Numbered from the stretch's first letter, positions 14,306-34,642 are shown. The stretch is DNA of 64,000 nucleotides from a virus (IMGVR_UViG_3300025018_000091); one strand, 5' to 3'. The notes: a model not told the origin generated them from the letters alone. Numbers and translations are program-made.

Positions 14306-14321
14306 ACAGGACGACAGACGC

Positions 14322-16834: not shown

Positions 16835-16871
16835 GAAGCGGTGGGTTGGGATAGAGTATGTTGATTTTAAA

Positions 16872-17801: not shown

Positions 17802-18161
17802 TTATAGGAAGGTTAATATAGTTTTAAGTTTATCTGGAGCGGAAGAGGGGGTAATATTGATGGCGGAATTGAGTTTAGTAATGATATTGATTACATATTT
17901 TTCATTATTTTTAAATTTACTGATAGTGGTAGAATTTTCTAGGTGGTCTACGAGAATTTCGTAGCGGGAGTTATCCAAGTGGACTTTAAAGGAGATGAAG
18001 TTTTGAGGGATTTCTGTATCTTTTGGGTCATCGTTATCGAATTTTATTAATTTAGAATTAACTAAGATATAATCGCAGTGAGTACATTCCAGGGGATTTT
18101 CATAGAATTGGTTTAAGAATTCGAATTTAGTCAGGGTATTATTACAATAAAGGCAAATCAT
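17802..18161 (-). CDS. CxxC / FS-tail family protein
   Basis: MICLYC...KLKTILTFL*. Confidence 0.85.
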   Translation of the reverse strand: MICLYCNNTLTKFEFLNQFYENPLECTHCDYILVNSKLIKFDNDDPKDTEIPQNFISFKVHLDNSRYEILVDHLENSTTISKFKNNEKYVINIITKLNSAINITPSSAPDKLKTILTFL

Positions 18162-18505
18162 GAGAATGTGAGTATAGTTTTGAATTTACTATGAAAGTTA
18201 GATGGATTGAGATTGAATGTGGGGATTTCCATAATGGGGTAATGGTTATTATTGTAGAAAACGATTAATTTTGATTCTATAAAGATAATTGAGTAATAGT
18301 CATTTTTATTTGGGGTTAGGCAGATCCAGTTTAATTTATTATCATTATCTGGGAAGCAATAAGTGATTATGAAATTATTATTACAGGGATCGCATGTTCT
18401 GAGGTATGAAGATATTGATTTTGTTGGTTTATTGCAGAATTTACAATTTAGTGGTGGTGGGATACTTTGATTATTAATATCTTCAATTAATTGTTTTTTT
18501 GCCAA
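18158..18505 (-). CDS. CxxC / FS-tail family protein
   Basis: CKFC...KFKTILTFS*. Confidence 0.85.
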   Translation of the reverse strand: MAKKQLIEDINNQSIPPPLNCKFCNKPTKSISSYLRTCDPCNNNFIITYCFPDNDNKLNWICLTPNKNDYYSIIFIESKLIVFYNNNHYPIMEIPTFNLNPSNFHSKFKTILTFS

Positions 18506-18519
18506 TGTACTATAATCCT

Positions 18520-18891
18520 TTATGAGAAAATCACATAAGTTTTTAGTTTGCGGAAGAAGTTATTTGGAGTAATATCTAATATTCCTTTAACTTTAAAAAT
18601 AGATTCATAAATGGGTAGTGGTTTAGTGAAGCAGAGTAGTTCAGTATAATCGAGGTCATAGTTTATCATAAAGAAGTAGAATTTTTCAGCATTATCATTA
18701 AATCTATTGGGGTCGCAGATAGAGATAGAGATATATTGGATATCATCATTTTCTGGATATTGCCATTCATAGTAGACAGGTATTGGGCATTTGTGGCACC
18801 AGCCGATACTCATATTTAGATCTGGATGATTATTTTCATAAGTTGGATCTAAATCTGTGTTTACTTTATTGTGACAAAATTTACAATTCAT
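18520..18891 (-). CDS. CxxC / FS-tail family protein
   Basis: CKFC...KLKTYVIFS*. Confidence 0.85.
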   Translation of the reverse strand: MNCKFCHNKVNTDLDPTYENNHPDLNMSIGWCHKCPIPVYYEWQYPENDDIQYISISICDPNRFNDNAEKFYFFMINYDLDYTELLCFTKPLPIYESIFKVKGILDITPNNFFRKLKTYVIFS

Positions 18892-19232
18892 GAGAATAAT
18901 ATATATAATTTAACTGAATCAAAATTAGTGGGAGTTACTGGTAATCTTTTAGGGATTACGATTTGGGTTGCTGGGACATCGCTCATTGTAATAAATGTTT
19001 GAGTATTTGTTAGATGTACGATAACGATAGCTGATTTTCTTTTAAAGGTTAATTGTGTACTTTCTAGGGACCAACCGTTAGGTTTATCATTATCATCCAG
19101 ATGTCTAATAAATCTAAATATTGCATTACATTTAAAGCATTGGGATATTTGGAGATTTATTAAGTCTCCGGAGAACAAATAATTAATTGATTTTAGATCT
19201 GAATCACAATAGAGGCATTTTTTACAATTCAT
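18888..19232 (-). CDS. CxxC / FS-tail family protein
   Basis: CLYC...SVKLYILFS*. Confidence 0.85.
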   Translation of the reverse strand: MNCKKCLYCDSDLKSINYLFSGDLINLQISQCFKCNAIFRFIRHLDDNDKPNGWSLESTQLTFKRKSAIVIVHLTNTQTFITMSDVPATQIVIPKRLPVTPTNFDSVKLYILFS

Positions 19233-19693
19233 GAGAATACGATTAATTTTCTTAATTTATGAAATATATAGGTAGCTTGTTCATGCATATCGTTATTAGT
19301 TGATAAGGGAATGAATGGTACTTGTATTAAGGGGGGGTCAATAAAGTTTGATAGTAATTGTGTAAACTTTTCTTTTTTAGAATACTGTAAGCTAAACTTA
19401 CCCATATCATTTTGAAATAGCATAGGAGTTGATGGGGTAGCTTTAAGGATATATAGTTTATCTTTATGGATGAATTTTAGATTATAGTGGTCACAGATCC
19501 ATTCTTGATTAGAGTATGATGGAGGGACAATGACGCCGAAGTGACATCCACCAGTTGGGCATCTATCGCGACCATGCATATAGTCATAATTGACGCAATA
19601 AAGGTTCATACGATAGGAATCTGGGTTAACGTGGTTAACGTGATGGCGTTCATCGCGATTTTCCATTGTTGATAAGCAAGCTGGACATTTCAT
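19229..19693 (-). CDS. CxxC / FS-tail family protein
   Basis: CPAC...KLRKLIVFS*. Confidence 0.85.
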   Translation of the reverse strand: MKCPACLSTMENRDERHHVNHVNPDSYRMNLYCVNYDYMHGRDRCPTGGCHFGVIVPPSYSNQEWICDHYNLKFIHKDKLYILKATPSTPMLFQNDMGKFSLQYSKKEKFTQLLSNFIDPPLIQVPFIPLSTNNDMHEQATYIFHKLRKLIVFS

Positions 19694-20055
19694 GAGAATA
19701 ACAATATAGTTTTGATTTTATTTGTTAAGTTCTGGGGAGTTACATAAATTATGTATGGAAAACTATTTACATTACTAGAGTTTCGCATAAATTGCATAAA
19801 CTTTTTATTTGAATAAGTTATTGTACTAATTGTACTTTTTCTAATTTCTGATTTATTATTTCTTAAATCTAATCTAAAATGATATGGACTATAGTTATGT
19901 AATGTTATATCGTTGATAGTTCCTCTATAAGCCCAATATCTAACATTACATATATTACATGTATAAACTTTGTGATTATAATCATAAGTATAATTAGTAA
20001 TATTACCATAAGTATATGGTTTAAGAGTTTTTCTGTTGCAATATTTACAAATCAT
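19690..20055 (-). CDS. CxxC / FS-tail family protein
   Basis: CKYC...KIKTILLFS*. Confidence 0.85.
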   Translation of the reverse strand: MICKYCNRKTLKPYTYGNITNYTYDYNHKVYTCNICNVRYWAYRGTINDITLHNYSPYHFRLDLRNNKSEIRKSTISTITYSNKKFMQFMRNSSNVNSFPYIIYVTPQNLTNKIKTILLFS

Positions 20056-20399
20056 GAGAATAACATATATAGTTTTACTTTTTGCGTTGCATTTTGTGGA
20101 GTGATATTTATTATTGAATTAAATGTTTTTTCAAATTTCTTTGTACCGATTCGATTCGAATCGATTTTATTGTAATTTACTTTTCCATAGTGAGTGCCTG
20201 TAATTTTTGTAGCATTGATAGCATGATATAAACTAATACCAAAATAATATTCATTTAAATAGAACCCAAAAGAAGTTTCTATTAAGTTATTATTTTTAAA
20301 ATAGAAACCACAATTACAATTTGGGCAAAACTTTTCATTGTTTTCAATATAAGATTGTAGTTCTATTAGATATGAGTCACAATATTTGCATTTAATCAT
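20052..20399 (-). CDS. CxxC / FS-tail family protein
   Basis: CKYC...KVKLYMLFS*. Confidence 0.85.
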   Translation of the reverse strand: MIKCKYCDSYLIELQSYIENNEKFCPNCNCGFYFKNNNLIETSFGFYLNEYYFGISLYHAINATKITGTHYGKVNYNKIDSNRIGTKKFEKTFNSIINITPQNATQKVKLYMLFS

Positions 20400-20740
20400 G
20401 AGAATAACAATATTGTTTTTAATTTAGATTTTGAGTTATTAATATCCATCTTAACAATATGATTAAGTGTTAGTATTCTTTTCCAAACGGTTGTATGATT
20501 TTTATTCTTCATTTTTCTTTCAAAATCAGGGAAACTGGGACCGCTTATATATGTTTTATCGTTCTTATAGTCTATAGTTAGAAAATATAATAATTTATTT
20601 AATTCTACATTGATATCGATTTCCAAGATATTATTATTACAATATAAGATGCTGGTCGAGCAAATTTCACATGAAATCATTCCAATATTATCATCATTAA
20701 CCAGATCGGCAATCAAGTTAGTACAATAAGGACAAATCAT
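20396..20740 (-). CDS. CxxC / FS-tail family protein
   Basis: CPYC...KLKTILLFS*. Confidence 0.85.
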   Translation of the reverse strand: MICPYCTNLIADLVNDDNIGMISCEICSTSILYCNNNILEIDINVELNKLLYFLTIDYKNDKTYISGPSFPDFERKMKNKNHTTVWKRILTLNHIVKMDINNSKSKLKTILLFS

Positions 20741-21105
20741 AAGAATACTACCAAAGTTTTAATTTTATTCAAAAGCTTTTCTTCTTCCATAGGTTGGATT
20801 GGTGGGCAAGTGAATATTGTTTTAAATAGCCACCGACCAGTTTTATATGCTTTACTGGCATGAGGGTGGTCTGGTGGTATATGTATGGCAACTTTTGTTT
20901 CTTTTTTATTTGTTCTAACTCTATAAGGAGGGACAATCATATCGACATGTTCTTCAACAATGGAGAAATGAAATTTTCTTTTACTGGCTTGGAATTTTAT
21001 ATATTTAGGACACCAATAGTAACCATCATATCCTTTGAGGGTTTTGCCGCACAAAGGACATGTCATTGTAATCTTTTCTTTAGTTTTATATCTTTTACGT
21101 TTCAA
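20737..21105 (-). CDS. CxxC / FS-tail family protein
   Basis: CPLC...KIKTLVVFL*. Confidence 0.85.
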   Translation of the reverse strand: MKRKRYKTKEKITMTCPLCGKTLKGYDGYYWCPKYIKFQASKRKFHFSIVEEHVDMIVPPYRVRTNKKETKVAIHIPPDHPHASKAYKTGRWLFKTIFTCPPIQPMEEEKLLNKIKTLVVFL

Positions 21106-21452
21106 GAGAACACCGTGTACAATTTTAATTTATTTTTTATTAAATATTCAGCTTCATATGGAGAAAAGAACTTTAAATGATTAAGTGTTAGTATTATCTT
21201 CCATTTAGATTTAGGAAATACGGGATGACGCAGTTTGCTAACAATAGTTTTATTTTCTTCTATACGCTGAGTTATTCTATAACGATAATCACCAACTACT
21301 ATACTTAATCTAGATTCTGTAAGAATTGCCTCTTTTGTTCCTGGTTTAATTAAACAATACCAAGTATTACAATGCGGGCAATGCATTGATCTAGTTGTGT
21401 GTGAAATATCAAAATCTTTATTGCAGTTTCTGCAATGAAATAGAATATCCAT
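21102..21452 (-). CDS. CxxC / FS-tail family protein
   Basis: CRNC...KLKLYTVFS*. Confidence 0.85.
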   Translation of the reverse strand: MDILFHCRNCNKDFDISHTTRSMHCPHCNTWYCLIKPGTKEAILTESRLSIVVGDYRYRITQRIEENKTIVSKLRHPVFPKSKWKIILTLNHLKFFSPYEAEYLIKNKLKLYTVFS

Positions 21453-21453
21453 A

Positions 21454-21867
21454 TTAACTGAATGTTATTAGTAATTTAACGTTATTAAAAATTGTATCAA
21501 ATTGAGGTGCCAATGGTTCTTTAAGTTTTAGATTATAGAATTTAGGAATTTCCGTTGTACTGCCAGAATCACATTCATCATATCTAATTTTATATAGAGT
21601 TGTTTTCATTTCTTCTCTATTAGATTGCAAGTAATATGTTTTGCCATTTCGTCTAATGGTGGCAAAATAACTATGCACAATACCTTTTTGTTTAGGTATT
21701 GTGATTATATATAGATCTTCACTTTCATCATTTGAATCAAAAGAATCGTCCTCATCTCGATAGAAACAAGCCCATCTTGTATGATCCTTACGAAAAGAAG
21801 ATGTTTTTATCAGTGGATTGCCGCTCAAATGACACAATATAGGATCCATTCCTGATAATATAATCAT
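21454..21867 (-). CDS. FS-tail family protein (CxxC degenerate)
   Basis: CHLS...NVKLLITFS*. Confidence 0.8.
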   Translation of the reverse strand: MIILSGMDPILCHLSGNPLIKTSSFRKDHTRWACFYRDEDDSFDSNDESEDLYIITIPKQKGIVHSYFATIRRNGKTYYLQSNREEMKTTLYKIRYDECDSGSTTEIPKFYNLKLKEPLAPQFDTIFNNVKLLITFS

Positions 21868-21885
21868 TTAACAGCGCGTGTCAAA

Positions 21886-22263
21886 TTATAAAAATAGCAA
21901 ATATGTTTTTAATTTGTGTTCGATATTATCTGGAGTAATCTTAGGAGTATTATCAACACTTATTAAAGTGTGTTCTAATTCAAACAATGATTCTTCTAGA
22001 TATTCATAAGTTAATTCATCTTCTGCGGCGTTTATATATCTTATTGTACTTCTATTACTTAAATCATTAAATGACCAATTATAAATTTTACCATTAATCT
22101 GTTTATATATAGAATAAAAAGCAAGTTTACCACTTTTGAAGTAAATATATTTTATCATACATTTTTTACAACTTAGGATATCCAATCCTTCACGCTCATA
22201 AAATATGATTTTATGTTCGTTCAAATTAGATTCGCAAAATAAACATTTTTTAGTCTCATTCAT
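21886..22263 (-). CDS. CxxC / FS-tail family protein
   Basis: Start MNETKKCLFC...KLKTYLLFL*. Confidence 0.85.
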   Translation of the reverse strand: MNETKKCLFCESNLNEHKIIFYEREGLDILSCKKCMIKYIYFKSGKLAFYSIYKQINGKIYNWSFNDLSNRSTIRYINAAEDELTYEYLEESLFELEHTLISVDNTPKITPDNIEHKLKTYLLFL

Positions 22264-22294
22264 AATTTTGTATACTACTATCAGGAGAATTACT

Positions 22295-23122
22295 ATGTCA
22301 TTATTTCCAAATATCAACTCACCAGCAAAGTTTTTAACTACTAAATCTTGGATTATAAATAGATTTTTTACCAACTATGGTTACATTGAAGATGGTTCTG
22401 GCAATGATCTATTATATTCATCCAGTCCAATGGTTACTACTCCAATTAGAAATACATCTTCATTAAAGAATTGGTTTAAGCCAATTAGTAATCAATATCA
22501 TATTGGTTCTTGTGTAGCTAATGCGGCAGCTGATTCATTTGAAGCGATGTTAGCTAGAAGAAAAAACTGTGATCCATCATTAATTGAAGATCTATCTAGA
22601 TTGTTTATTTATTGGAATGCTAGAAATTTAGCTAATCCACCTATTTATAATGTAGATAAGGGTTCGAGTATAAGATTAGCATTTGATAGTATAGCAAGAT
22701 ATGGTGTTCCTAGTGAGAAAACATATCCTTACATTTTTAGTAAGGTAAACGATAGACCAACTATATTATCTTATCGTGAAGCTATTAAAAATAGGATAAG
22801 TAAATTCTATAGAATAGATGGTAAGGGTGATGTAAGGATATTACAGATAATGCAAGCATTATCGGCGGGATATCCTGTTGTATTTGGAACTAAAGTTACT
22901 GAAAGTTTTAAACAAGTAAAGAGTGATGCTATTGTTTTTTATCCAAATGGAGGATGGATAGGTGGTCATGCTATGGTTATAGTAGGATGGTCAGAATCTA
23001 AACAAGCATTTGAAGTAAGAAACTCTTGGGGCGAAGATTGGGGAGTTAAAGGATATTGCTGGATGGATAAAGGCTATATTACGGCAAGTGTAACTGCAGA
23101 CATTTGGGTTCCAACAGTTTAA
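22295..23122 (+). CDS. papain-like cysteine protease (peptidase C1)
   Basis: QYHIGSCVANA (Gln/Cys), GGHAMVIVGW (His), NSWGEDWGVKGY (Asn); AGGAG RBS. Confidence 0.92.
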   Translation: MSLFPNINSPAKFLTTKSWIINRFFTNYGYIEDGSGNDLLYSSSPMVTTPIRNTSSLKNWFKPISNQYHIGSCVANAAADSFEAMLARRKNCDPSLIEDLSRLFIYWNARNLANPPIYNVDKGSSIRLAFDSIARYGVPSEKTYPYIFSKVNDRPTILSYREAIKNRISKFYRIDGKGDVRILQIMQALSAGYPVVFGTKVTESFKQVKSDAIVFYPNGGWIGGHAMVIVGWSESKQAFEVRNSWGEDWGVKGYCWMDKGYITASVTADIWVPTV

Positions 23123-23131
23123 GGAGAAGTT

Positions 23132-23485
23132 ATGAAGCTACTAAATATTATGGTTATTCTTTTGAGTTTGGTTGGATGCGCTCATTGTGGACCAAAAGAT
23201 GAGCCCAATATTCGTACACAACCTGGTATTGAATATTGTGGAGCTATGTGTCAAATCTTTACAGACAAACAATGTACTGGATACTATGAAGATATTGAGA
23301 TTAATTGTTTTTCAGACCCAGCATATATGGATATGAAACAATGTGAAGCTACAGAAGATGGTATGGCTGTTTTAACTTGTACAGAATTTTGTGAATATCA
23401 AATGAAGAATTCAGTTCAACTTAATCCTCAATGCTTATCTGAAAACTTATTAGTATGTTCAGAGATAGAAGAGATATGTCAATAA
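23132..23485 (+). CDS. Cys-rich putative lipoprotein
   Basis: Signal peptide with LVGC lipobox, many Cys; AGGAG RBS. Confidence 0.7.
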   Translation: MKLLNIMVILLSLVGCAHCGPKDEPNIRTQPGIEYCGAMCQIFTDKQCTGYYEDIEINCFSDPAYMDMKQCEATEDGMAVLTCTEFCEYQMKNSVQLNPQCLSENLLVCSEIEEICQ

Positions 23486-23914
23486 TCAAGAGAATAGAAG
23501 TAACAACTTAATCTTATTTTTTATTTTATCTGGCAATTGGTGATGGTTATCCCAAGGGATATTTACTACGCCATCAATTGCCAATATTCTATTGTAGATA
23601 AAAGAATTTGCTTTATCTTTAGTTTTAATCATTCTACCTTGAGGAGATGGTTTATAACTATAAATAGCTGGTCTTTTTTCAATTTTATATACTTGTGTTT
23701 TCTTTTGAAGATAGTTGATATGTATTTTATATGGCAAAGAAATAACTGTTGCGTCCTGAAGTTTACCTAAATTATAAACAATATACGTAGCATGAGTCAT
23801 TGGAATCATTGAATTATATTCTGGAACTGGTTCTCTTTTATCGGGGCATGACCATATAGTATTACTATATGATGGTCGCATTTCCTTATTACATATGGGG
23901 CATTGAAAATTCAT
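23486..23914 (-). CDS. CxxC / FS-tail family protein
   Basis: CPIC...KIKLLLLFS*. Confidence 0.85.
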   Translation of the reverse strand: MNFQCPICNKEMRPSYSNTIWSCPDKREPVPEYNSMIPMTHATYIVYNLGKLQDATVISLPYKIHINYLQKKTQVYKIEKRPAIYSYKPSPQGRMIKTKDKANSFIYNRILAIDGVVNIPWDNHHQLPDKIKNKIKLLLLFS

Positions 23915-23924
23915 TTCATTTAAC

Positions 23925-24266
23925 TCAGGAGAATAATATTATTGTTTTGATTTTATTGTCAATATATTCATCAGTGACATTTACCAGATTTATTGCTTTA
24001 TATATATTGCATATTTCTATTCCAGTAAGATTTTCAGATATAATAGTTTTATTATAACAGTAACTTATATTTACTATATATTCTTTTGTTTCTATACATA
24101 TTCCTTCTATTTCTTCATCATCTCCTGATGGGGTACATTTATAGCTAAAAGAAAATTTATGACAGTCATTGCAGAACTTATTGAAGTAGAATCTTTTATT
24201 TTCTTCATTACCAGTTTGGAGTTTGCTCCAATTATTGGAATGGCATCTTGGGCATTCGTTATACAT
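23925..24266 (-). CDS. CxxC / FS-tail family protein
   Basis: CPRC...KIKTIILFS*. Confidence 0.85.
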   Translation of the reverse strand: MYNECPRCHSNNWSKLQTGNEENKRFYFNKFCNDCHKFSFSYKCTPSGDDEEIEGICIETKEYIVNISYCYNKTIISENLTGIEICNIYKAINLVNVTDEYIDNKIKTIILFS

Positions 24267-24273
24267 AATAAAC

Positions 24274-24651
24274 TCAAATGAATAGTGAATAAATTTTAAT
24301 CTTTTTCTTTATATCTTCCACATTATCTTCAACTAAAAATAGTGGATTAGTAATTTGGGCTATTTGTCTAGAGTAATAAGTTGCGGAATTACTATATTTT
24401 TCATTTAGATAAACTTCTGTTTGTTCTTTTGTTGACCAAATCATTATTGGAGGAATAAAATAGTGAAATAGGACTTCTCCACTCTTATATCTTATAAACT
24501 CATAGTGAGAGTATCCAACATTATCTACTCTATAATAATTATCTTTTTCTCTGCAAAAATAGATTTTACAAACTGAGTTATTAGTTTCATTCATATATGA
24601 ATTGCATATTGGGCATTTCATATAATCTACTGTTTCGTCTGGATATTTCAT
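24274..24651 (-). CDS. CxxC / FS-tail family protein
   Basis: CPIC...KIKIYSLFI*. Confidence 0.85.
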   Translation of the reverse strand: MKYPDETVDYMKCPICNSYMNETNNSVCKIYFCREKDNYYRVDNVGYSHYEFIRYKSGEVLFHYFIPPIMIWSTKEQTEVYLNEKYSNSATYYSRQIAQITNPLFLVEDNVEDIKKKIKIYSLFI

Positions 24652-25409: not shown

Positions 25410-25450
25410 ACACTAATATATAACCACCTATAATACAAAAAATTAGGTGA

Positions 25451-27524: not shown

Positions 27525-27957
27525 GCATAAGTTCGAACAAACATTAGATTTTAGTAAGCCCAAACTTTCTAAAAGATATGTCTCCAGAGTTCTAAAGACA
27601 ACGAATTTTAACAACGTCGTTATCGATGCCAGTACGGGAAACATAACCCGCATCGAACACGAAGTCAAGGTGGGCATGTACGTAATTCACGTTATTTTAC
27701 CGTCAGAGCGGATCGGCAAATCTTTTAAATGCTTACATGATTATAAAAAAATGCACACAGAAATATCCAAGGTTAATACTACTAAAGAACAAAAGAAAAT
27801 AAATTTATTAAGAGATAATCTATTTGTTAATCAAAGATGGGTTCATAAAAATCATCGTCCTATAAATCATACTTGTGGCGGTTGGATTAAAATTAATGAC
27901 CTTGTAAATGCTATACTATATTGCAATAGAATAAGTAGACTAAAAGCATTCTTATGA
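27505..27957 (+). CDS. hypothetical protein with variant F-tail; paralog of 33354-33875
   Basis: KINLLRDNLFVNQRW resembles KLNIAKDNRFDDRQW; ends RISRLKAFL*. Confidence 0.75.
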   Translation: MSASRVEHKFEQTLDFSKPKLSKRYVSRVLKTTNFNNVVIDASTGNITRIEHEVKVGMYVIHVILPSERIGKSFKCLHDYKKMHTEISKVNTTKEQKKINLLRDNLFVNQRWVHKNHRPINHTCGGWIKINDLVNAILYCNRISRLKAFL

Positions 27958-28515
27958 AAATAAGATATATGTTCTCATCTTATTAACTAGCTTTTCTTTT
28001 GTCTTAAATCTATAAAGTGGAAGAAGTGGTATATTCATCTTCATCATCTTATTTGTGTTTTTATCTAAAACATTTATTTTAGTTTCATTTTCAGAATACT
28101 CTGACATTAAGCTATAAAATACATTTTTTGATGTTGTAGATAATACTTCTCGTAATATAGTAATTGGTCTAATAAACATCTTTCTATCAAATTGAAGCGG
28201 ATTACTATATATAAAGTTCTGACAAAACTTACAGTTGCTAGAGATATATAGCTCTCTACACCCTAAATAAGAAATAAATTCTTCCATATTAGATACTTTA
28301 AACTTATTATCACTTATAGATATCTGAAGATTTAGGCTATGAGAATACTTTATTCTAAGTGTGACATCAATTATATTATTTTTTAAAAACTGAGGTAGCT
28401 TTTGAAATTGGTTAGATTCAGGGTTGTTACTTAATACATTAATGGTCACTTTCTTTCCACAAGAAAAACAAGGACCATTATAAAGAATGAAATCTTTTAC
28501 CGTAAAATTCTTCAT
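27952..28515 (-). CDS. long-type CxxC / FS-tail family protein
   Basis: CFSC...CKFC...KMRTYILFS*. Confidence 0.85.
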   Translation of the reverse strand: MKNFTVKDFILYNGPCFSCGKKVTINVLSNNPESNQFQKLPQFLKNNIIDVTLRIKYSHSLNLQISISDNKFKVSNMEEFISYLGCRELYISSNCKFCQNFIYSNPLQFDRKMFIRPITILREVLSTTSKNVFYSLMSEYSENETKINVLDKNTNKMMKMNIPLLPLYRFKTKEKLVNKMRTYILFS

Positions 28516-29603
28516 TTTGCAGCACGTAAATAAGCCTCTATAAATGGCTGTAAGTCACCATCCATTACTATATCAGTATTTCTATTTTCATAATCTGTTC
28601 TATGGTCTTTTACTAATTGATATGGATTGAAATAATACGTTCTAATTTGGCTTCCAAAAGCAATATCTTGTTGAGCAGATAGTTGTGCTTCTTTTTCAGA
28701 ATTCTTTTTCTTCATTTCTATATCATATAGTTTACTTTTTAGCATTTTTAAAGCTGTTTTCTTATTAGACAACTGATCTCTTTCAGTTCTAACAAGAATA
28801 TTGATGCCAGATGGAATATGTTTTAATCTAATGGCGCTTGCCACTTTGTTTACATTTTGACCACCAGGACCACCAGCAGTTTGAGCAGTAATCTCGATAT
28901 CTTTATCCTCAATCTTGATATTGATTGTATCCTCAACATCTGGTAATACTGATACTGCCGCAAAAGAAGTATGTCTGGCATCTCCTGCATTAAATGGAGA
29001 ATTTCTTATTAATCTATGTACGCCAGATTCTCCTTTTAGAAAACCATAAGCATAGGGACCTTCAATTCTATATGATACTGAGTCGGTACAAATGGAACTA
29101 TGTTCGTCACATGGTTTATTATCTAAACATTCCACATTTAAATTATAACTATCCGCCCATCTCAGGTACATACGAGATAGCATCGTTACCCAGTTAGCGG
29201 CTTCTAGACCCCCTGCACCCGCGTTAATCGTTAATATAGCGGGACTGTTAGCCATAGGATCGGTCATCATATGAAGAAATTCCATATCAGAAAGTTCTTT
29301 ATAGAGATGTGAGATTTCATCATGTTGTTCTGGTAATTCTTCTGGAAGAATATCTACCAGTTCTTCATAAAAATGCGTCAAATTTAAGAACGTCTCAAAT
29401 TTATCTACAAAATCTGATAATCTTTGTCGTTCTTTCATCATTGCTCCAGCTTGTTTAGGATCATTCCAGATATTTGGAGCTAACATTTTATTGTCTATTT
29501 CGTCTATTTTTGTAACATATTTTTCATAATCAAACATGTTACGTATTGAATTTATCTTATCGCGACATAACGATACTAATTGTTGTGTTTCCATGGTTTT
29601 CAC
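28512..29603 (-). CDS. prfB: peptide chain release factor 2
   Basis: AGAGGLEA..W..ML.RMY, GESGVHRLIRNSPF (RF2-specific SPF), RHTSFA, GGPGGQNVNK (GGQ), FGSQIRTY; continuous ORF. Confidence 0.93.
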   Translation of the reverse strand: MKTMETQQLVSLCRDKINSIRNMFDYEKYVTKIDEIDNKMLAPNIWNDPKQAGAMMKERQRLSDFVDKFETFLNLTHFYEELVDILPEELPEQHDEISHLYKELSDMEFLHMMTDPMANSPAILTINAGAGGLEAANWVTMLSRMYLRWADSYNLNVECLDNKPCDEHSSICTDSVSYRIEGPYAYGFLKGESGVHRLIRNSPFNAGDARHTSFAAVSVLPDVEDTINIKIEDKDIEITAQTAGGPGGQNVNKVASAIRLKHIPSGINILVRTERDQLSNKKTALKMLKSKLYDIEMKKKNSEKEAQLSAQQDIAFGSQIRTYYFNPYQLVKDHRTDYENRNTDIVMDGDLQPFIEAYLRAAK

Positions 29604-30013
29604 GCAAAGGTAAGGGATAATTTAACTTTTTTCTTCAGTCTTGTTAGTTTAGGATAATCTGGCTCTATTATAAATGGTAATCCTAGAGATCTAGATTCAG
29701 TATTAGCTTCTCTTGTCCATATTAGAGATCTATTCTCCAAGTATACGTTAGAGAACATAACGTATTTGTTTCCGATATTAATTGAGAATTCGTCAAATAA
29801 AACTACATCAGGGTTAAGTTTGTCAGAAAAATACCCATAATAATGAAGCGGATCTTTTGAAGAGGGATGAAAATGTGTTGCACTTATTAAAATTAATTTA
29901 TTTCCGGGAAAATATCTTTTAAGAAAACCGACACCATCTCTAGCCTCCTCTATAAATAACTTATTATTACATACCGGACACGTATTGTTTTTTATATTAG
30001 TTAATGGAATCAT
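29600..30013 (-). CDS. CxxC / FS-tail family protein
   Basis: CPVC...KVKLSLTFA*. Confidence 0.85.
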   Translation of the reverse strand: MIPLTNIKNNTCPVCNNKLFIEEARDGVGFLKRYFPGNKLILISATHFHPSSKDPLHYYGYFSDKLNPDVVLFDEFSINIGNKYVMFSNVYLENRSLIWTREANTESRSLGLPFIIEPDYPKLTRLKKKVKLSLTFA

Positions 30014-30681
30014 GAGAATAGTACATATGTTTTAATCTTTTTGATTAAATAATCTTTGTCTAACATTTTATATAAATCAAGTTTAGGTAATGTTGCAATA
30101 GTATTTTTACTATCTAATAAATAAGTATTTGGTGAATCTATTGAAGATATTAAGCTAAATTTTTTACTATCTATAATGACAGTAACTGCTTCGGCACTAA
30201 TGACCAATGGATAAATTCTTCTTGTTAATGTTCCTAATACTAAATTAGAACTTTGATATCTGTATTTGAATCCACTACGCAAACAATCTCTGTTATCACA
30301 TTTTTTCAATAAAAACATATCATATTCCAATATGATTTTTTGAATATTTTTAGTTAAACCATATGTTGTAAGTTGATTATTATATATATTTACAGAGAAA
30401 ACTTTAACTTTATGTTCTTCAGGATCATAACATGACCAACATGATAATTCGTCTTCTTTTAATCTAGAAAAATAACCAACATGATACAACTCATGCTCAA
30501 AACTATATCGTGATGGTTCCTCTGGATATGTAATACAATATAGTTTGGTAAGAGGATCTTGATTTATAATATTTCTACTATTTAAACTTAGTTCTAATTT
30601 ATTATTACAAAATGGACATTTATCCATTAATGATATAAAATCATGAATATTTTCGAAACGCATTATGACATTAAAATCCAA
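30010..30681 (-). CDS. long-type CxxC / FS-tail family protein
   Basis: CPFC...CDNRDC...KIKTYVLFS*. Confidence 0.85.
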   Translation of the reverse strand: MDFNVIMRFENIHDFISLMDKCPFCNNKLELSLNSRNIINQDPLTKLYCITYPEEPSRYSFEHELYHVGYFSRLKEDELSCWSCYDPEEHKVKVFSVNIYNNQLTTYGLTKNIQKIILEYDMFLLKKCDNRDCLRSGFKYRYQSSNLVLGTLTRRIYPLVISAEAVTVIIDSKKFSLISSIDSPNTYLLDSKNTIATLPKLDLYKMLDKDYLIKKIKTYVLFS

Positions 30682-31359
30682 TTATCCAACCTAGAAAATA
30701 GTTTATCTCTATCCTTTAGGTTAAAATTAGGTCTGCTTTTTAGCAAAGGTAATTGCTTTTCAAAAATGTTTGGAGAATAGTCTTTATCTTCAAGTTGCTC
30801 TTTTGAGCATGTATAATACCACAACATAGTATTATTATTTTCATAATCTATATTAACCATATAAACTTTTTCTAGATCATCGACCTTTCTGGTTAATGAA
30901 AAAGATTCGTCAGAATTTACTATTTTGTTTGCACTTTTTGATGTAGGTCTTATAACAATCTTTCCTGATTTAGTTTTTACACAATCTAATAATGTTGTCG
31001 TTCTATAGTAACATCCATAATATAAATAAATTTCATAATACAAGCCTTGCTTTTTCTTTAAAACCGTTATCATTGCACAAGAAAAATAGATACATTTGGT
31101 TTTCTAATACTTTATTTTTTAGTTTATCTGAACTAAAAATAATTTCCGTTCCCGTTTCGGTAAAATCCATATCTATATATTCATCATTGAATTCTGAATT
31201 AATACACTTAAACTGTTCAAATCTATATGAACGACTAGACGATCCTAAAATCGGAATACCTCTAAAACACATTGAATCTAGCAATTGTAAATATAATGTT
31301 AAAGATTCTCCACATATTGGACAGCTCTTATTAAAATCTAAAAATTTATTAAATCTCAT
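30663..31359 (-). pseudogene. long-type CxxC / FS-tail member split by a frameshift near 31035-31070
   Basis: 5' ORF 31033-31359 has MRFNKFLDFNKSCPIC; 3' ORF 30663-31073 has CYYR...RLDNWILMS*; combined length matches neighbours. Confidence 0.6.
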
Positions 31360-31369
31360 TTTTTTTCTC

Positions 31370-31993
31370 TTACGTAAATGTTACGACCGTTAATATTCTG
31401 TTTTTTATTTTATCTTTATTAAACAGTTCGAAATTTATAAAAGGTGTTTCTATTGGATCACCATCTGGATTTTTATTTGATACGATTCTTGTTGTATTAT
31501 AAATATAATCGCTTTGGACCCAATACTTACCAATATTAATAGAATCAAAATACATAAAAAATGGTCTAATTGTGGTATACTCTATAAAATCTGTTCCAAC
31601 ATACTTATTAGATAGTCTATCACAAGTAATAAAGTTTGAATTAACAGTATAATTTAAACCACATTTTTTATTATCACAACTTAAAGAGATATGTGGCTTA
31701 TGCATTTCAAAAAGTTCAATAGTATTATTTCCACTAGAAGTGTGAGCTGGCTGTTTTTCTATAAATAACTCGTTCGATAATATATTTAACTTACACTTTA
31801 CGTCTACAATTGAGTGTCTATTAACATTTTTAAGACTAAATAGAAAATAATTATCTACTAATCTCGATTTAAATGTTGGTATCTCTCTACGTATTACAAA
31901 ACTAGTAAAAACAGGAGAAAGTTTTGAACCACAAAACACACATTTATCTCTAAAATCTATAAATTTCCATATATTTGAAAACACATTTTTCAT
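31370..31993 (-). CDS. long-type CxxC / FS-tail family protein
   Basis: CVFC...CDNKKC...RILTVVTFT*. Confidence 0.85.
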   Translation of the reverse strand: MKNVFSNIWKFIDFRDKCVFCGSKLSPVFTSFVIRREIPTFKSRLVDNYFLFSLKNVNRHSIVDVKCKLNILSNELFIEKQPAHTSSGNNTIELFEMHKPHISLSCDNKKCGLNYTVNSNFITCDRLSNKYVGTDFIEYTTIRPFFMYFDSINIGKYWVQSDYIYNTTRIVSNKNPDGDPIETPFINFELFNKDKIKNRILTVVTFT

Positions 31994-32649
31994 GAAAATA
32001 TTAATAGTTTCTTTATTCTATTGAGAACATCTTCTGGTTTAGCCATACTCTCCGATACTAAAGGTAATTGCAATGTATCATGTCGTTTTTTTCTATTGAT
32101 ATGAGAATACTCAGTCTTATTCATTGTATAAACATTTCGTATTTCATAAACATCTTCACCTTCTTCTACAGATATAAATTCTGAATTAAGAATAGCACAT
32201 TCAACTATCATCTCATATATGTCAAATCGTAATTGTAAGGTATAAGCATATTGCATACAATTTTTACAATCAACCCTATGTCCTTGCATAAGAATGCCGT
32301 CTCTTATATCATAATCAACATTTATAGGAGACTTTACAATATGTGCTGGACTCAGAGATCCTATAGAATATATAGGTAGATAGTTAACTGACTGAGATAT
32401 CGCTAACTCAATTAGTTGCTCACTATCAATGTCAAATACTATCTTATTATCTTTATCTGAGCCTGATTTAATAGTTATACGGCGGAGCACAACATCATTG
32501 ATTGATTTAAATGATTTTAATGAATATGCAAAATCGTAGTTATTTAACTGAATATTATCAATTAATGATAAATTCATATTAGTGCCGCACATTGGGCAAT
32601 TCTCATGATATGGATATGCATCCCTTAACTTCTCGAATATTTTTATCAC
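31990..32649 (-). CDS. long-type CxxC / FS-tail family protein
   Basis: CPMC...CKNC...RIKKLLIFS*. Confidence 0.85.
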   Translation of the reverse strand: MIKIFEKLRDAYPYHENCPMCGTNMNLSLIDNIQLNNYDFAYSLKSFKSINDVVLRRITIKSGSDKDNKIVFDIDSEQLIELAISQSVNYLPIYSIGSLSPAHIVKSPINVDYDIRDGILMQGHRVDCKNCMQYAYTLQLRFDIYEMIVECAILNSEFISVEEGEDVYEIRNVYTMNKTEYSHINRKKRHDTLQLPLVSESMAKPEDVLNRIKKLLIFS

Positions 32650-32655
32650 AGATTC

Positions 32656-33306
32656 TTACTCGTAGTATTCTTCAAATACATCTTTAGTCAATCCTGCATC
32701 AATTAATACTGGCAATCCGTCTTTAGTTCCCCATGAAGAAATTCTAGCAATATCACCAGGCATTAGTTTGAATTTTTTGCCTACCGCAACTAAATCCTTA
32801 TATATACTGGATTTTGAAACTTCATCGAAATTATCTGGTTCCTTCATATCTTTACTTCCAGATACTGATTTAAGTCCATAATTAATTGCTTCTCCAAAAT
32901 CATCAAAATCTAAGTCTGTCATTTTTTCAAACTGCTTTACCGTAATCTTTTTTAGAAAAGATACTTCGATCCAGGCATGGTTAGAAGCTTTACGAAGAAC
33001 TTTGTTAAGATACTTTGACTTCATTTTGGAATTGGATTCCACTTTATTTTGCGCAATTCCTCGGTCGTTCTTTGCTAATTTAAGGATGGTTTTCTCGGGC
33101 GTCAAGTATACAATTCGGCTGGAGCCCGACGACAAATGTTTTAAATTTTTCTCGGCGTACTTCTTTCGCGCGTTATACGTCTCTAATTTTTGAATATTTT
33201 TCAACACCACATCTAAATCCTTAGAGTCTTCAGGCAGTTCTTCCTTCTCTGATGCTGCTAGCGACTCAAATATACTGGCAAATCTAAGGATTTTATTGAC
33301 GTTCAT
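32656..33306 (-). CDS. protein-kinase-like fold protein with putative virion propeptide
   Basis: LSSGSSRIVY (Gly loop), ILKLAK (Lys), QNKVE (alphaC Glu), GDIARISSWG, VLIDAG (DFG-like). Confidence 0.65.
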   Translation of the reverse strand: MNVNKILRFASIFESLAASEKEELPEDSKDLDVVLKNIQKLETYNARKKYAEKNLKHLSSGSSRIVYLTPEKTILKLAKNDRGIAQNKVESNSKMKSKYLNKVLRKASNHAWIEVSFLKKITVKQFEKMTDLDFDDFGEAINYGLKSVSGSKDMKEPDNFDEVSKSSIYKDLVAVGKKFKLMPGDIARISSWGTKDGLPVLIDAGLTKDVFEEYYE

Positions 33307-33353
33307 GTTATAAATACGTTCTTAGTAATATTCTCAAAGATATATAATACATT

Positions 33354-33875
33354 ATGATAACTAAAGAAGAATATCTTAAATTAATACAAAAGGCTTATCA
33401 TCAAGATGATGAATTAGATGATGGGGAAGAGCTTTTTTGGATTCCAGCTAAGCCAGAAATTAAAAAGAAACTACAAAACCTTATAAAACCAAATGGTGAT
33501 ATAAATGCTACTAAAATGAAGAAGGCAGAGTTTTCTAAACTTATCAACAAACACAACCGAATAACTATAGGAAACTTTATGGTACATATCAAATCTATAG
33601 TTAATCCAACAGGTATAGATAATGTTGTAGAAGATGCCGTAGAGATTACAGAAGAAACTAAATATAATATTGTTCTCTATGAAGTTAAAAAGACTACACC
33701 TTCTGGTATGCCGTGTAATATCCAAGTTAAGTTAAATATAGCTAAGGATAATAGATTTGATGATAGACAATGGGCTAAGGGATTTACTCAGCTTGGTGGA
33801 AGCGTATCAGATAAAACATTAATTGAATTACTTAAATGGATGCAAGCAATAACAAAATTACCAGCTTTTCTTTAA
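33354..33875 (+). CDS. hypothetical protein with variant F-tail; paralog of 27505-27957
   Basis: Ends AITKLPAFL*. Confidence 0.75.
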   Translation: MITKEEYLKLIQKAYHQDDELDDGEELFWIPAKPEIKKKLQNLIKPNGDINATKMKKAEFSKLINKHNRITIGNFMVHIKSIVNPTGIDNVVEDAVEITEETKYNIVLYEVKKTTPSGMPCNIQVKLNIAKDNRFDDRQWAKGFTQLGGSVSDKTLIELLKWMQAITKLPAFL

Positions 33876-34492
33876 GAAAAAAGCAATAATTTGTTTAGTC
33901 TGTTTAATGTTTCTTCTTTCGATACAAAATTTATTAATGCTGTTTCAATAACATATTCGTGATTTGAAAAGTTCCAAGTCTCTAAATCTATTCCTCTTTT
34001 GCCTACAGTTAGAATACTTTTTTCTCTATTATAGTTATTAACTAACCCAAATACTTTATCATCTTTATTCATTACAAAACATTCTACATTAATAAATAAA
34101 TCTCCAAAATTCTGTTTTTGCAAATCTACCAGAAACTTATTAGATTCATAAGTATATTCTTTACAAGAATTACAATGCTTGTATAACCTATAAGAACTGA
34201 GATTTTGATTAAATTCTTTAAACATATCTATTAATGATAGAGGTATAGTTTCAAACCTTTTACCATTTCTTGAATAGAACTCCATAAAAAATGAATTATC
34301 ATTAGGATTAATCGAATATCCCACTTCATATGAAGCACTATTACTTCTAAGAGAAGTCATTTGAAATGTAATAAGTAGTCTATCATCTATTATCCTGACT
34401 TTTTGTCGTTTCCTAGAGTGAAGAGCTAATGATAAGCTTGATGAACATAATGGGCAAACATTTCGATGTGATAAAAAATCTCGTAAATTCAT
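33872..34492 (-). CDS. long-type CxxC / FS-tail family protein
   Basis: MNLRDFLSHRNVCPLC...CNSC...RLNKLLLFS*. Confidence 0.85.
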   Translation of the reverse strand: MNLRDFLSHRNVCPLCSSSLSLALHSRKRQKVRIIDDRLLITFQMTSLRSNSASYEVGYSINPNDNSFFMEFYSRNGKRFETIPLSLIDMFKEFNQNLSSYRLYKHCNSCKEYTYESNKFLVDLQKQNFGDLFINVECFVMNKDDKVFGLVNNYNREKSILTVGKRGIDLETWNFSNHEYVIETALINFVSKEETLNRLNKLLLFS

Positions 34493-34642
34493 ACTTCTCC
34501 AATATCTCGTAACATACTTAATATAACCACTCTGGACATATAAGCAACCCTTCATAAATACAACATAATTGTCGCTGCCCGTATATACTTACTCCCCCTA
34601 TAAGATCCCCCATGTGTTTGTCGAGAGATTGCTCAGAAATTT

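What the first reader, a model, noticed from the sequence alone, without database searches (positions are those of the whole stretch)
17802..34492. Library of about 30 divergent zinc-knuckle proteins sharing one C-terminal tag (K-[LIV]-K-x4-F-S-COOH)
Seen: 29 minus-strand ORFs; 28 start with CxxC. Their middles are highly divergent, yet all end in an amphipathic basic helix with Phe as the penultimate residue (Met in one). Examples: KLKTYVIFS, KIKTILLFS, KVKLYMLFS, RLNKLLLFS. Selection looks protein-level: the terminal Ser uses TCA, TCT, TCC, AGT and AGC codons. The pre-tail linkers define spatially clustered subfamilies: ITPxN (17.8-22.3 kb), LPWFEPD/PD (24.6-27.3 kb) and 190-230-aa double-Cys-pair forms (28-34.5 kb). 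This points to serial tandem duplication followed by rapid diversification. Inference: a variable-body plus constant-tail design resembles an adaptor or effector library. The tail could dock on one common machine, such as a protease or unfoldase (compare the HbYX tails of proteasome activators or poxviral C-terminal F-box/PRANC adaptors). It could instead be an export or encapsidation signal, or a C-terminal degron. I do not recognise this family as characterised.
Basis: partly seen in the sequence, partly recalled or inferred. Interest (0 to 1): 0.92.

Follow-up and report, generated by a model that had tools for sequence, protein, structure and literature searches.

The report
Huge-phage zinc-ribbon small-protein gene array
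About thirty neighbouring genes of an uncultured 444-kb groundwater phage encode very diverged copies of one undescribed small zinc-binding protein; their shared ending is predicted to be the helix that the fold wraps around, not a loose tag, but the same ending also closes dozens of other small proteins in a related phage, and the function is untested.

Summary
Window 17802-34555 carries 29 minus-strand ORFs ending K-[LIV]-K-T-x-[LIV]-x-F-S or a close variant: 28 have Phe at -2 and one has Met, and 27 have an N-terminal CxxC.

They are full-length homologues, not unrelated bodies with a shared tag. A profile of them finds 1173 protein clusters in metagenomes, with no Pfam or PHROG match. AlphaFold2 (pLDDT 94) gives a zinc ribbon, a seven-stranded sheet and a C-terminal helix that is the "tail". 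An independent coevolution analysis couples that helix to the sheet and the zinc knuckle. No known fold matches.

The 187-227-aa forms are two tandem domains. The array, with a phage RF2 always embedded, is syntenic in 16 loci fetched from related huge-phage contigs.

So the free docking-tag reading is not supported for these proteins. This agrees with three earlier follow-ups of this scan on other genomes.

New here: in a complete 448-kb relative, the same register-fixed ending also closes 41 further small ORFs. Thirty-six of them have no detectable similarity to the family, and many sit beside family members. Either one hyperdiverged superfamily makes up about 10% of that phage's genes (my preference), or the ending is a portable signal. 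Function is unknown; I favour a repertoire of host-directed binders.

The parts
17802..22374 (-). Twelve single-domain family members: 17802-18161, 18158-18505, 18520-18891, 18888-19232, 19229-19693, 19690-20055, 20052-20399, 20396-20740, 20737-21105, 21102-21452, 21454-21867, 21886-22374. This is the mostly 'ITPxN' linker group. 21454-21867 has lost the CxxC.
   Evidence: ORFs and tails. Full-length profile matches at E 1e-10 to 1e-19, except 19229-19693 (E 0.0014, in two pieces). Most junctions are 4-nt ATGA overlaps.
22205..23485 (+). Insert on the opposite strand: a papain-family C1 peptidase (22205-23122) and a small Cys-rich protein with a lipoprotein-type signal (23132-23485). Neither is a family member.
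   Evidence: Pfam PF00112, E 1.5e-17. The same insert is present in loci L007 and L011.
23486..27281 (-). Ten single-domain members: 23486-23914, 23925-24266, 24274-24651, 24648-25043, 25044-25409, 25451-25858, 25842-26168, 26168-26554, 26551-26895, 26892-27281. Includes the 'EPDFP/LPWFEPD' linker group, the widely conserved 121-aa orthologue 25044-25409, and the 'RLLNIKAFS' tail variant 25451-25858.
   Evidence: AlphaFold2 model of 26892-27281: pLDDT 94.4.
27505..27957 (+). 150-aa Cys-less protein ending RLKAFL ('KAFL150'), on the opposite strand. Conserved at this position in relatives. Not a family member by profile.
   Evidence: Related to 33354-33875 over the last ~50 residues (hhalign 92.6%).
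27952..28515 (-). Two-domain (tandem) member of 187 aa, always immediately downstream of RF2 in relatives.
   Evidence: two profile stretches. (11 orthologues). AlphaFold2 pLDDT 94.0, pTM 0.85. Synteny.
28512..29603 (-). Phage release factor 2 (PCRF + RF-1 domains, SPF and GGQ motifs), translationally coupled on both sides to family members.
   Evidence: Pfam E 3.5e-44 and 1.8e-34. Alignment. Embedded in the array in 15 of the 16 fetched loci.
29600..30013 (-). Single-domain member of 137 aa (EPDYP linker, tail ...LTFA).
   Evidence: E 4.6e-16.
30010..30681 (-). Two-domain member of 223 aa.
30663..31359 (-). One two-domain member split into two overlapping ORFs in different frames. 31033-31359 is the N-terminal half with the CxxC. 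30663-31073 is the C-terminal half with the tail ...ILMS.
   Evidence: Both halves match one intact 228-aa ORF of the closest relative G001 at 54-56% identity.
31370..32649 (-). Two two-domain members (31370-31993, 207 aa; 31990-32649, 219 aa).
32656..33306 (-). 216-aa protein of unknown family, a conserved neighbour of the array in relatives. Not a family member.
33354..33875 (+). 173-aa Cys-less protein ending KLPAFL ('KAFL173'), on the opposite strand. Conserved at this position in relatives.
33872..34555 (-). Two-domain member (227 aa from the first ATG; the likely start is the Met at 34492).
45346..45738 (+). 130-aa ORF outside the array ending KLTKLMVFI. No CxxC and no profile match. Whether it belongs with the array is uncertain.

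Best explanation
The array is an old, much-diverged tandem expansion of one undescribed small protein domain of about 110-130 aa.

The domain has three parts: an N-terminal zinc ribbon (CxxC plus a second C-x(2-5)-C/H pair), a curved antiparallel sheet, and a C-terminal amphipathic helix. The conserved 'tail' is that helix. It packs between the sheet and the zinc knuckle, so it and the metal ligands are the invariant keel of the fold, while the outer sheet face and loops are free to change. The 187-227-aa forms are two such domains fused.

The genes are co-directional and mostly translationally coupled, and are probably co-expressed with a phage RF2 that always sits among them.

Inferred, not shown: the copies act as a repertoire of binding proteins aimed at different host or rival targets (take-over or counter-defence). 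The many Cys-less small ORFs with the same ending in relatives would be further members that lost the zinc ribbon.
For: Shown here:
- One profile covers the 22 short members end to end at E 1e-9 to 1e-29. The long forms match as two domains.
- The family is large: 1173 clusters at 50% identity, nearly all matched end to end.
- AlphaFold2 gives pLDDT 94.4 / pTM 0.84 for 26892-27281 and 94.0 / 0.85 for 27952-28515. The tail is a terminal helix, with block pLDDT 95-97 in the short form and 87-92 in the long form.
- Mean-field DCA on 357 sequences recovers the zinc site and the hairpin ladders. It also couples helix positions 115-127 to sheet positions 66, 75 and 78 and to Cys 18/21/41.
- Orthologue groups are conserved along their whole length, for example the C-C-C-H ligands and several motifs in the 121-aa group.
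- Synteny holds in 16 loci on 8.2- to 481-kb contigs.

Supporting the binder-repertoire inference:
- Members are 32-60% identical to their orthologues in the closest relative, while the embedded RF2 is 79% identical.
- The pI of the 29 tail-bearing members ranges from 4.9 to 9.9, and body net charge from -8 to +14.
- Profile-recognised members range from 5 in a 17-kb locus cut by the contig end to 30 in a whole genome.
- Nothing is conserved beyond the structural residues.

Supporting the superfamily reading of the Cys-less ORFs in relative G003:
- 20 of 41 lie within 100 bp of another tail or family ORF (random expectation 5.8). They are interleaved with profile-recognised members, often with 4-nt overlaps.
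- Their tail logo equals that of G003's own family members.
- With tails removed, four reach 96-98% hhalign probability to the family through the zinc ribbon and a fifth reaches 75%.
Against: - No model coordinates were available, so burial of the helix rests on pLDDT/pTM and on coevolution at Meff 340, which is modest.
- 36 of the 41 Cys-less tail-bearing ORFs of G003 show no body similarity to the family. Most lack homologues in my small database, so the test had little power. The two Cys-less families in this window also show none.
- Conserved lysines at -9, -7/-6 and -4 persist in proteins without a zinc site. A purely structural role does not obviously explain this.
- The internal helix of the first domain in two-domain forms keeps only a Y-L core of the motif, so the full motif is tied to the free C-terminus.
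- 424 of 426 proteins end exactly one residue after the Phe.
- There is no evidence on expression time, partners or phenotype. The binder-repertoire function is inference only.
Confidence: 0.5

Rival explanations
1. Portable C-terminal address. The ending K-hydrophobic-x-x-hydrophobic-x-x-F-x-COOH would be a module with its own function, read by one common machine (protease or unfoldase, hub protein, packaging or export device), and attached to many different small proteins.
For: - The register is fixed at the free C-terminus in 424 of 426 proteins.
- The same ending closes two Cys-less families inside the array that are conserved across the clade.
- It also closes 41 further small ORFs of relative G003, which fall into 34 BLAST-unlinked clusters. 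The strict pattern is seen 32 times against 0.07 expected by chance.
- Lysines flanking the hydrophobic face are conserved with or without a zinc site.
- The internal helix of two-domain forms lost the motif.
- Unchecked notes report the ending on other small proteins of this same genome.
Against: - In the zinc-ribbon members the helix is predicted with high confidence as part of a compact domain, and it coevolves with the sheet and the zinc knuckle.
- No tail-bearing protein has a recognisable independent domain to which a tag could have been added.
- Tail-bearing ORFs cluster in tandem with family members, as duplication predicts.
- The closest relative G001 has only 4 non-family ORFs with the ending, two of them probably spurious.
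- No reader protein is known.
Confidence: 0.2
2. Family of sequence-specific nucleic-acid-binding proteins (transcription factors or structural DNA/RNA binders). This is what was suggested for the zinc-ribbon expansion of Bacillus phage G.
For: - The N-terminal zinc ribbon weakly resembles the ribbons of Elf1, TFIIB and eL43.
- The tail is basic, with net charge from 0 to +5, usually +2 to +3.
- Iyer et al. 2021 (PMC7824862) proposed such roles for the roughly 35 zinc-ribbon copies of phage G.
- Whirly/PUR-type (beta4-alpha)x2 proteins appear among low-ranking fold hits for the two-domain form.
Against: - Body charge varies from -8 to +14, and nine of the 29 tail-bearing members are acidic (pI 4.9-6.3).
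- The fold hits are insignificant (TM about 0.2).
- No DNA-binding motif is conserved.
- Zinc ribbons bind proteins as often as nucleic acids (established knowledge).
Confidence: 0.12
3. Membrane- or compartment-targeting switch. The terminal amphipathic helix would resemble the C-terminal membrane-targeting helices of MinD and FtsA, being sequestered on the sheet in a closed state and released to bind a membrane.
For: The helix is short, sits at the extreme C-terminus, and has a narrow hydrophobic face (positions -8, -5, -2, -1) flanked by lysines. The likeness to the MinD/FtsA endings rests on my own knowledge, not on a test here.
Against: - Prediction confidence for the packed helix is high, and it coevolves with the core.
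- The hydrophobic face is short (about four residues).
- There is no experimental or contextual hint of membrane association.
Confidence: 0.07
4. Translation-related factors working with the phage RF2 or the ribosome. The array would belong to a translation take-over module.
For: - RF2 is embedded in the array in 15 of the 16 fetched loci. A two-domain member follows it directly in 11 of those 15, and in this window it is coupled to its neighbours by 4-nt overlaps.
- The best, weak sequence matches of the zinc ribbon in the PDB are ribosomal protein eL43.
Against: - Conserved neighbourhood shows co-expression at most.
- The eL43 matches (E 0.006-0.1) cover only the generic zinc ribbon.
- Thirty paralogues with very different surfaces are hard to fit to one translation factor.
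Confidence: 0.05

Closest known systems
Lineage-specific expansion of about 35 zinc-ribbon proteins in Bacillus phage G (Iyer, Anantharaman, Krishnan, Burroughs and Aravind 2021, Viruses 13:63, PMC7824862)
   Same: - A jumbo phage with tens of tandem, diverged small proteins.
- Each has an N-terminal CPxC...C..C zinc ribbon, then a beta-rich body, then a C-terminal helix.
- Some copies are fused to extra N-terminal domains.
- Function is unknown.
   Different: - The profile of this family matches phage G only weakly and only over the zinc-ribbon half: best E 4.4e-4, positions 5-82 of 119.
- Phage G copies end in a different helix (YWKEEDRYL-x-K-x-L), followed by endings of variable length. There is no Phe at -2 and no fixed register.
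- tblastn of a member against 50,697 phage records finds nothing.
Classic zinc ribbons of eL43 (L37Ae), Elf1, TFIIB/TFIIS type
   Same: Two CxxC-type knuckles about 15-25 residues apart at the start of a small beta structure. There are weak profile matches: PDB eL43 E 0.006, Elf1 E 0.03, Pfam Zn_ribbon_Elf1 best E 3e-4.
   Different: The matches cover only about 40 residues. The rest of the domain (seven-stranded sheet plus terminal helix) has no counterpart, and no fold search reaches significance.
C-terminal docking or targeting peptides: HbYX tails of proteasome activators, MinD/FtsA membrane-targeting helices, clamp-binding QL[SD]LF tails
   Same: A short motif at the extreme C-terminus with an aromatic residue next to the end. 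It is shared by otherwise different proteins and is register-fixed.
   Different: - Those tails are flexible or detachable. This one is predicted as a packed helix of the domain.
- Phe, not Tyr, is penultimate.
- There is no Gln as in clamp motifs.
- No partner was identified.
Uncharacterised proteins A0A6J5R... of an 'uncultured Caudovirales phage' in UniProt/BFVD
   Same: Same family and fold. The best BFVD hit has E 1.8e-9 and TM 0.80/0.85, and many further hits come from the same accession block.
   Different: They are unannotated and carry no functional information.

Membership tests
   The 22 short window members match end to end at E 1e-9 to 1e-29. Long forms match as two domains. The profile finds 1173 clusters in 1.84 billion representatives.
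   27 of 29 window ORFs have the CxxC. C11, C14 and C31 are invariant in 150 sequences. C-C-C-H is invariant in the 121-aa orthologue group. DCA couples the ligand columns.
   Phe at -2 in 170 of 178 proteins. 424 of 426 end at the profile's end. The helix spans residues 115-128 of 129 in the model.
Bacillus phage G zinc-ribbon expansion (Iyer et al. 2021) | Profile-level homology over the whole protein | tested here: not met
   Search of the whole phage G record with profile A1 gave 3 matches. The best had E 4.4e-4 and covered profile positions 5-82 only.
Bacillus phage G zinc-ribbon expansion (Iyer et al. 2021) | Same C-terminal motif | tested here: not met
   Phage G copies end ...YWKE(E/N)DRYL-x-K-x-L plus 1-14 variable residues.
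zf-UBP (PF02148), a lead from the protein-language-model search | Match to the Pfam model | tested here: not met
   The Atlas feature score was 0.88 with 172 shared features. None of 150 members matches PF02148 even at E 10.
zf-UBP (PF02148), a lead from the protein-language-model search | Same fold as solved ZnF-UBP domains | tested here: inconclusive
   No ZnF-UBP chain is listed by Foldseek or VIA-align for either model. Absence from these lists does not exclude it.
HbYX-type proteasome-activator tail | Hydrophobic-Tyr-X at the free C-terminus | tested here: not met
   The penultimate residue is Phe in 170 of 178 proteins and Tyr in 1.
HbYX-type proteasome-activator tail | Flexible tail that inserts into a partner's pocket | tested here: inconclusive
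   The tail is predicted as a packed helix with pLDDT above 85 and coevolves with the core. No coordinates or experiment were available, and no partner is known.
MinD/FtsA-type C-terminal membrane-targeting helix | Short basic amphipathic helix at the extreme C-terminus | tested here: met
   Hydrophobic residues at -8, -5, -2 and -1 are flanked by Lys at -9, -7/-6 and -4. This is a sequence pattern only.
MinD/FtsA-type C-terminal membrane-targeting helix | Binds membrane; transplantable | not testable with these tools
   Needs localisation or liposome assays.
Bacterial sliding-clamp-binding motif (QL[SD]LF) | Gln at the first motif position | tested here: not met
   In the tail logo, Gln is not among the commonest residues at -4 and reaches only 6 of 178 at -7. 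The motif is K-x-K-T-Y-x-x-F-S.
Classic zinc ribbon (eL43/Elf1/TFIIB type) | Two metal-binding knuckles flanking a beta hairpin, with a profile match | tested here: inconclusive
   Matches are weak and below Pfam cut-offs: PDB E 0.006-0.1, Pfam best E 3e-4 to 3e-3 in 4-12 of 150 members. The layout is consistent with a zinc ribbon.

The most novel reading that the evidence does not exclude
The ending K-hydrophobic-x-x-hydrophobic-x-x-F-x-COOH is a portable address label carried by about 70 otherwise unrelated small proteins (roughly a tenth of the genes) of some huge phages. One so far unknown reader would dock, degrade, localise or package them. The zinc-ribbon array would be only its largest client family, with the helix switching between a packed and a released state.
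Probability: 0.15. Interest if true: 0.85.

Novelty: new variant of a known kind. Interest (0 to 1): 0.55.

Why it matters
Huge phages devote a large share of their genomes to small genes of unknown function. This family alone supplies about 30 genes per genome. With the Cys-less tail-bearing ORFs it may account for about a tenth of the genes of one complete 448-kb phage. It forms more than a thousand sequence clusters in metagenomes, yet it has no Pfam or PHROG model and no fold match.

Defining it as one domain with a recognisable signature lets annotators collapse hundreds of "hypothetical proteins" into one family. It also offers a compact, confidently predicted scaffold for structural and interaction studies, and it poses a clear either/or question: core helix of a superfamily, or portable address. 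A few structure predictions and tail-fusion experiments could settle that. The invariable embedding of a phage RF2 in the array is an additional, unexplained clue.

Tried and rejected
**No hits or no useful hits**
- Pfam and PHROG scans of members returned only sub-threshold generic zinc-ribbon hits.
- No whole genome is held for this window.
- megablast and tblastn against 50,697 phage records found no match.
- Fold searches of both models against PDB (Foldseek, VIA-align wide), AlphaFold DB clusters, Swiss-Prot models and the ESM Atlas found nothing significant. The best VIA Z was 6.0 (LolB, a phage spike fragment), and TM scores were about 0.2-0.4 for p32/gC1qR, lipocalins, LptA, Whirly and kelch.
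- The zf-UBP lead from the language-model search is not backed by Pfam, PDB profile or fold searches.
- Atlas searches of the two Cys-less KAFL proteins returned poor models and no usable lead.
- Pfam on longer tail-bearing ORFs of relatives and on 45346-45738 found no informative domain.
- Literature searches found no paper describing this family.

**Negative or underpowered comparisons**
- hhalign of the two Cys-less KAFL families against the family profile showed no relation.
- Body-only profile scores of Cys-less tail-bearing ORFs against 290 control ORFs were significant but tiny (median 1.8 vs 0.3 bits, p 1e-5). The result is possibly confounded by spurious control ORFs, so I do not rely on it.
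- A Chou-Fasman composition contrast between the two sets showed no difference.

**Technical dead ends**
I repeated it with the 121-aa orthologue group.
- Trying to reach other parts of this genome through the look-up of encoding contigs returned only an 8.8-kb contig.
- Stop-codon reassignment as an explanation for the ORF-poor region 1-17000: no single reassignment opens long frames.

**Complex prediction**
- Co-folding phage RF2 with the adjacent two-domain member gave no verdict (score 0.00; the mark is 0.32). I do not use it either way.

Full report
**1. What is in the sequence**

Between 17802 and 34555 the minus strand carries 29 ORFs of 108-227 aa that end in K-[LIV]-K-T-x-[LIV]-x-F-S or a close variant. 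The counts:
- Phe is penultimate in 28 and Met in one.
- The last residue is S 21, L 4, A 2, T 1, I 1.
- 27 have a CxxC within the first 60 residues.

One exception, 21454-21867, has lost the CxxC. The other, 30663-31073, is the C-terminal half of a gene split into two frames. Its N-terminal half, 31033-31359, carries the CxxC, and the closest relative has one intact 228-aa ORF there.

Fifteen junctions in the array are 4-nt ATGA overlaps. Stops are TGA 18, TAA 11 and TAG 0.

Every conserved tail position uses several codons: Ser has five, Phe two. A relative with higher GC keeps the same peptide. Selection is therefore on the protein.

**2. The bodies are homologous, not unrelated**

BLASTP links only eight pairs. 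A profile built from family members and metagenomic relatives matches the 22 short members end to end at E 1e-9 to 1e-29; 19229-19693 matches only weakly, in two pieces.

The 187-227-aa proteins match as two tandem domains, and only the second carries the tail.

A profile of 23 window members finds 1173 clusters (50% identity) among 1.84 billion representatives at E 0.001 or better. Nearly all are matched from first to last residue. Over 178 retrieved proteins the tail logo is K/N-L-K-N/E-K(90%)-I/L/V-K-T-Y-L/I/V-x-F(96%)-S(71%). Of 426 family proteins whose match reaches the profile's end, 424 stop exactly there.

Individual paralogues have orthologues in other phages that are conserved along their whole length. 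In the 121-aa group, for example, the C-C-C-H ligands and several motifs are invariant.

There is no Pfam or PHROG family. The only sequence resemblance is a weak one between the first ~40 residues and generic zinc ribbons such as eL43, Elf1 and TFIIB.

**3. Structure**

AlphaFold2 on 26892-27281 with 150 family sequences gives pLDDT 94.4 and pTM 0.84. The model has a zinc ribbon, seven strands and a helix at residues 115-128 of 129. That helix is the tail.

The two-domain member 27952-28515 gives pLDDT 94.0 and pTM 0.85. It has an N-terminal helix, a first Cys pair and sheet, an internal helix (77-86), a second Cys pair and sheet, and the terminal helix at 173-185.

I could not obtain coordinates, so I ran an independent mean-field DCA on 357 non-identical family sequences (Meff 340).
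- The top couplings recover the metal ligands and the antiparallel ladders, which validates the signal.
- Among the top 45 pairs there are also couplings of helix positions to the sheet (66-124, 78-120, 75-122), to the pre-helix Pro (108-126), and to the zinc knuckle (18, 21 and 41 with 126; 21-119; 23-115).
- Alternating helix positions couple to different partners, which suggests that the helix is enclosed by the curved sheet.

Fold searches of both models found nothing significant: best VIA Z was 6.0 and Foldseek E was above 0.01. The only confident structural neighbours are unannotated proteins of an uncultured phage in BFVD, which are family members.

A language-model lead to zf-UBP was not confirmed by any sequence or fold test.

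**4. Context and relatives**

Earlier follow-up notes of this scan describe the source as a phage genome of about 444 kb from groundwater. The protein collection lists a 444,127-bp contig carrying these proteins.

The 121-aa orthologue led to 14 IMG/VR loci on contigs of 8.2 to 481 kb, and to two further loci on overlapping contigs (169 and 99 kb) of one phage. In all 16 loci the order is the same:
1. A Cys-less 173-aa protein on the opposite strand.
2. A 216-aa protein.
3. Two-domain members.
4. RF2.
5. A two-domain member.
6. A Cys-less 150-aa protein on the opposite strand.
7. A long run of single-domain members.

All family members in a locus share one strand.

RF2 (PCRF and RF-1 domains, SPF and GGQ motifs) sits inside the array in every locus that covers that region, 15 of 16. 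A papain-like peptidase plus a Cys-rich lipoprotein is inserted on the opposite strand here and in two relatives.

Profile-recognised members number 25 in this window. In relatives they range from 5 in a 17-kb locus cut by the contig end to 30 in a whole genome.

Against the closest relative, family orthologues are 32-60% identical while RF2 is 79% identical. Among the 29 tail-bearing members, pI ranges from 4.9 to 9.9 and body charge from -8 to +14. The tail's net charge is 0 to +5, usually +2 to +3.

**5. Is the tail portable?**

Two plus-strand ORFs in the array, 27505-27957 and 33354-33875, have no CxxC and end RLKAFL and KLPAFL. They are conserved in relatives with the ending nearly invariant. 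They are related to each other over their last 50 residues (hhalign 92.6%). They have no detectable relation to the family. A 'RLLNLKAF[LS]' flavour of the tail also exists inside the zinc-ribbon family, here in 25451-25858.

I then fetched a complete 447,763-bp relative, G003.
- Besides 30 family ORFs found by an iterated profile, 41 further ORFs of 65-212 aa end K-[YLIF]-x-K-L-K-A-F-[ILT]. They are scattered from 21 to 432 kb.
- A strict pattern is seen 32 times against 0.07 expected.
- The 41 fall into 34 BLAST-unlinked clusters and mostly lack Cys pairs. None has a Pfam or PHROG match.
- Their tail logo is the same as that of G003's own family members.
- With tails removed, four reach 96-98% hhalign probability to the family through the zinc ribbon and a fifth reaches 75%. 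Thirty-six show nothing, though most have no homologues in my small database, so the test had little power.
- Twenty of the 41 lie within 100 bp of another tail or family ORF, against 5.8 expected. They are interleaved with profile-recognised members, often with 4-nt overlaps. Tandem duplication predicts this pattern.

The closest relative, G001 (354 kb, 79% complete), has 14 family ORFs and only four non-family ORFs with the ending. The genome-wide spread is therefore lineage-specific. Unchecked first-reader notes report further small proteins with this ending elsewhere in this genome. I could not reach those regions.

**6. Interpretation**

For the zinc-ribbon proteins, the tail is best read as the core helix of a compact, previously undescribed domain. 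It and the metal ligands form the invariant keel, and the rest of the surface diverges. It also agrees with three earlier follow-ups of this scan on other genomes.

I favour a repertoire of binding proteins directed at host or competitor targets. The grounds are faster evolution than the embedded RF2, widely varying surface charge, variable copy number, and the absence of any conserved catalytic-looking residues. This is inference only.

Several facts keep a function of the ending itself alive:
- The exact C-terminal register.
- The conserved lysines, even where there is no zinc site.
- The loss of the motif in the internal helix of two-domain forms.
- The many Cys-less carriers.

I put a portable address at about 0.2. 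The other rivals are nucleic-acid binding as proposed for phage G (0.12), a membrane-targeting helix (0.07) and a translation-linked role suggested by the RF2 synteny (0.05).

**7. Comparison with what is known**

The nearest described case is the expansion of about 35 zinc-ribbon proteins in Bacillus phage G (PMC7824862). Those proteins share the layout of zinc ribbon, beta body and terminal helix. However, the profile of this family matches them only weakly and only over the ribbon. Their terminal helix has a different sequence and no fixed register.

I therefore class this as a new variant of a known kind of thing, namely a jumbo-phage lineage-specific expansion of a small zinc protein. It comes with an undescribed domain and an unresolved question about its ending.

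Noticed in passing
window 30663-31359 (-): One two-domain family member is split into two overlapping ORFs in different frames (31033-31359 and 30663-31073, 41 nt of overlap). The closest relative G001 has a single intact 228-aa ORF. This could be a frameshift, a pseudogene or a sequencing error.
   Followed up: partly
window 28512-29603 (-) and loci L001-L019: A phage RF2 with SPF and GGQ motifs is embedded in the array in 15 of the 16 fetched loci and is coupled by 4-nt overlaps to family members here. No array gene uses TAG as its stop (TGA 18, TAA 11).
   Followed up: partly
window 1-17000: This stretch has GC of 42-54%, against about 30% in the rest of the window. It has no long ORFs under code 11 or under any single stop-codon reassignment. 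ARAGORN finds two tRNA genes (Thr at 2952-3025, Lys at 6244-6316). Other first-reader notes describe hairpin cassettes and tRNA-like elements there.
   Followed up: partly
relative G003 (L021-L043), 21-432 kb: 41 small ORFs end K-[YLIF]-x-K-L-K-A-F-[ILT]. Thirty-six of them have no detectable similarity to the zinc-ribbon family; the other five link to it through an N-terminal zinc ribbon once the tails are removed. Together with 30 family ORFs they are about a tenth of that phage's genes.
   Followed up: partly
window 22205-23485 (+): A papain-family C1 peptidase and a Cys-rich protein with a lipoprotein-type signal (..LVGC) are inserted on the opposite strand in the middle of the array. The same pair is inserted in loci L007 and L011.
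   Followed up: no
window 32656-33306 (-) and 34711-35457 (-): Two proteins with similar N-termini (..ILRFASIFESLA.. and ..LLKTANIFEKLA..). The first is a conserved neighbour of the array in 14 of the 16 loci. Neither has a Pfam match.
   Followed up: no
protein P0181 (homologue of window 27505-27957): An NCBI record assigns this homologue, on a 7.3-kb contig, to a 'Candidatus Paceibacterota' metagenome bin. This is probably a phage fragment binned with a low-GC genome.
   Followed up: no
relative G001 (L048), about 83.8-87.6 kb: The array of the closest relative is smaller (14 members) and contains short fragments with internal stops. This suggests decay of some copies.
   Followed up: no
window 54563-55786 (-) and 56838-58043 (+): Two proteins of about 400 aa with collagen triple-helix repeats (Pfam PF01391), near a family-2 glycosyltransferase (59840-60916).
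   Followed up: no
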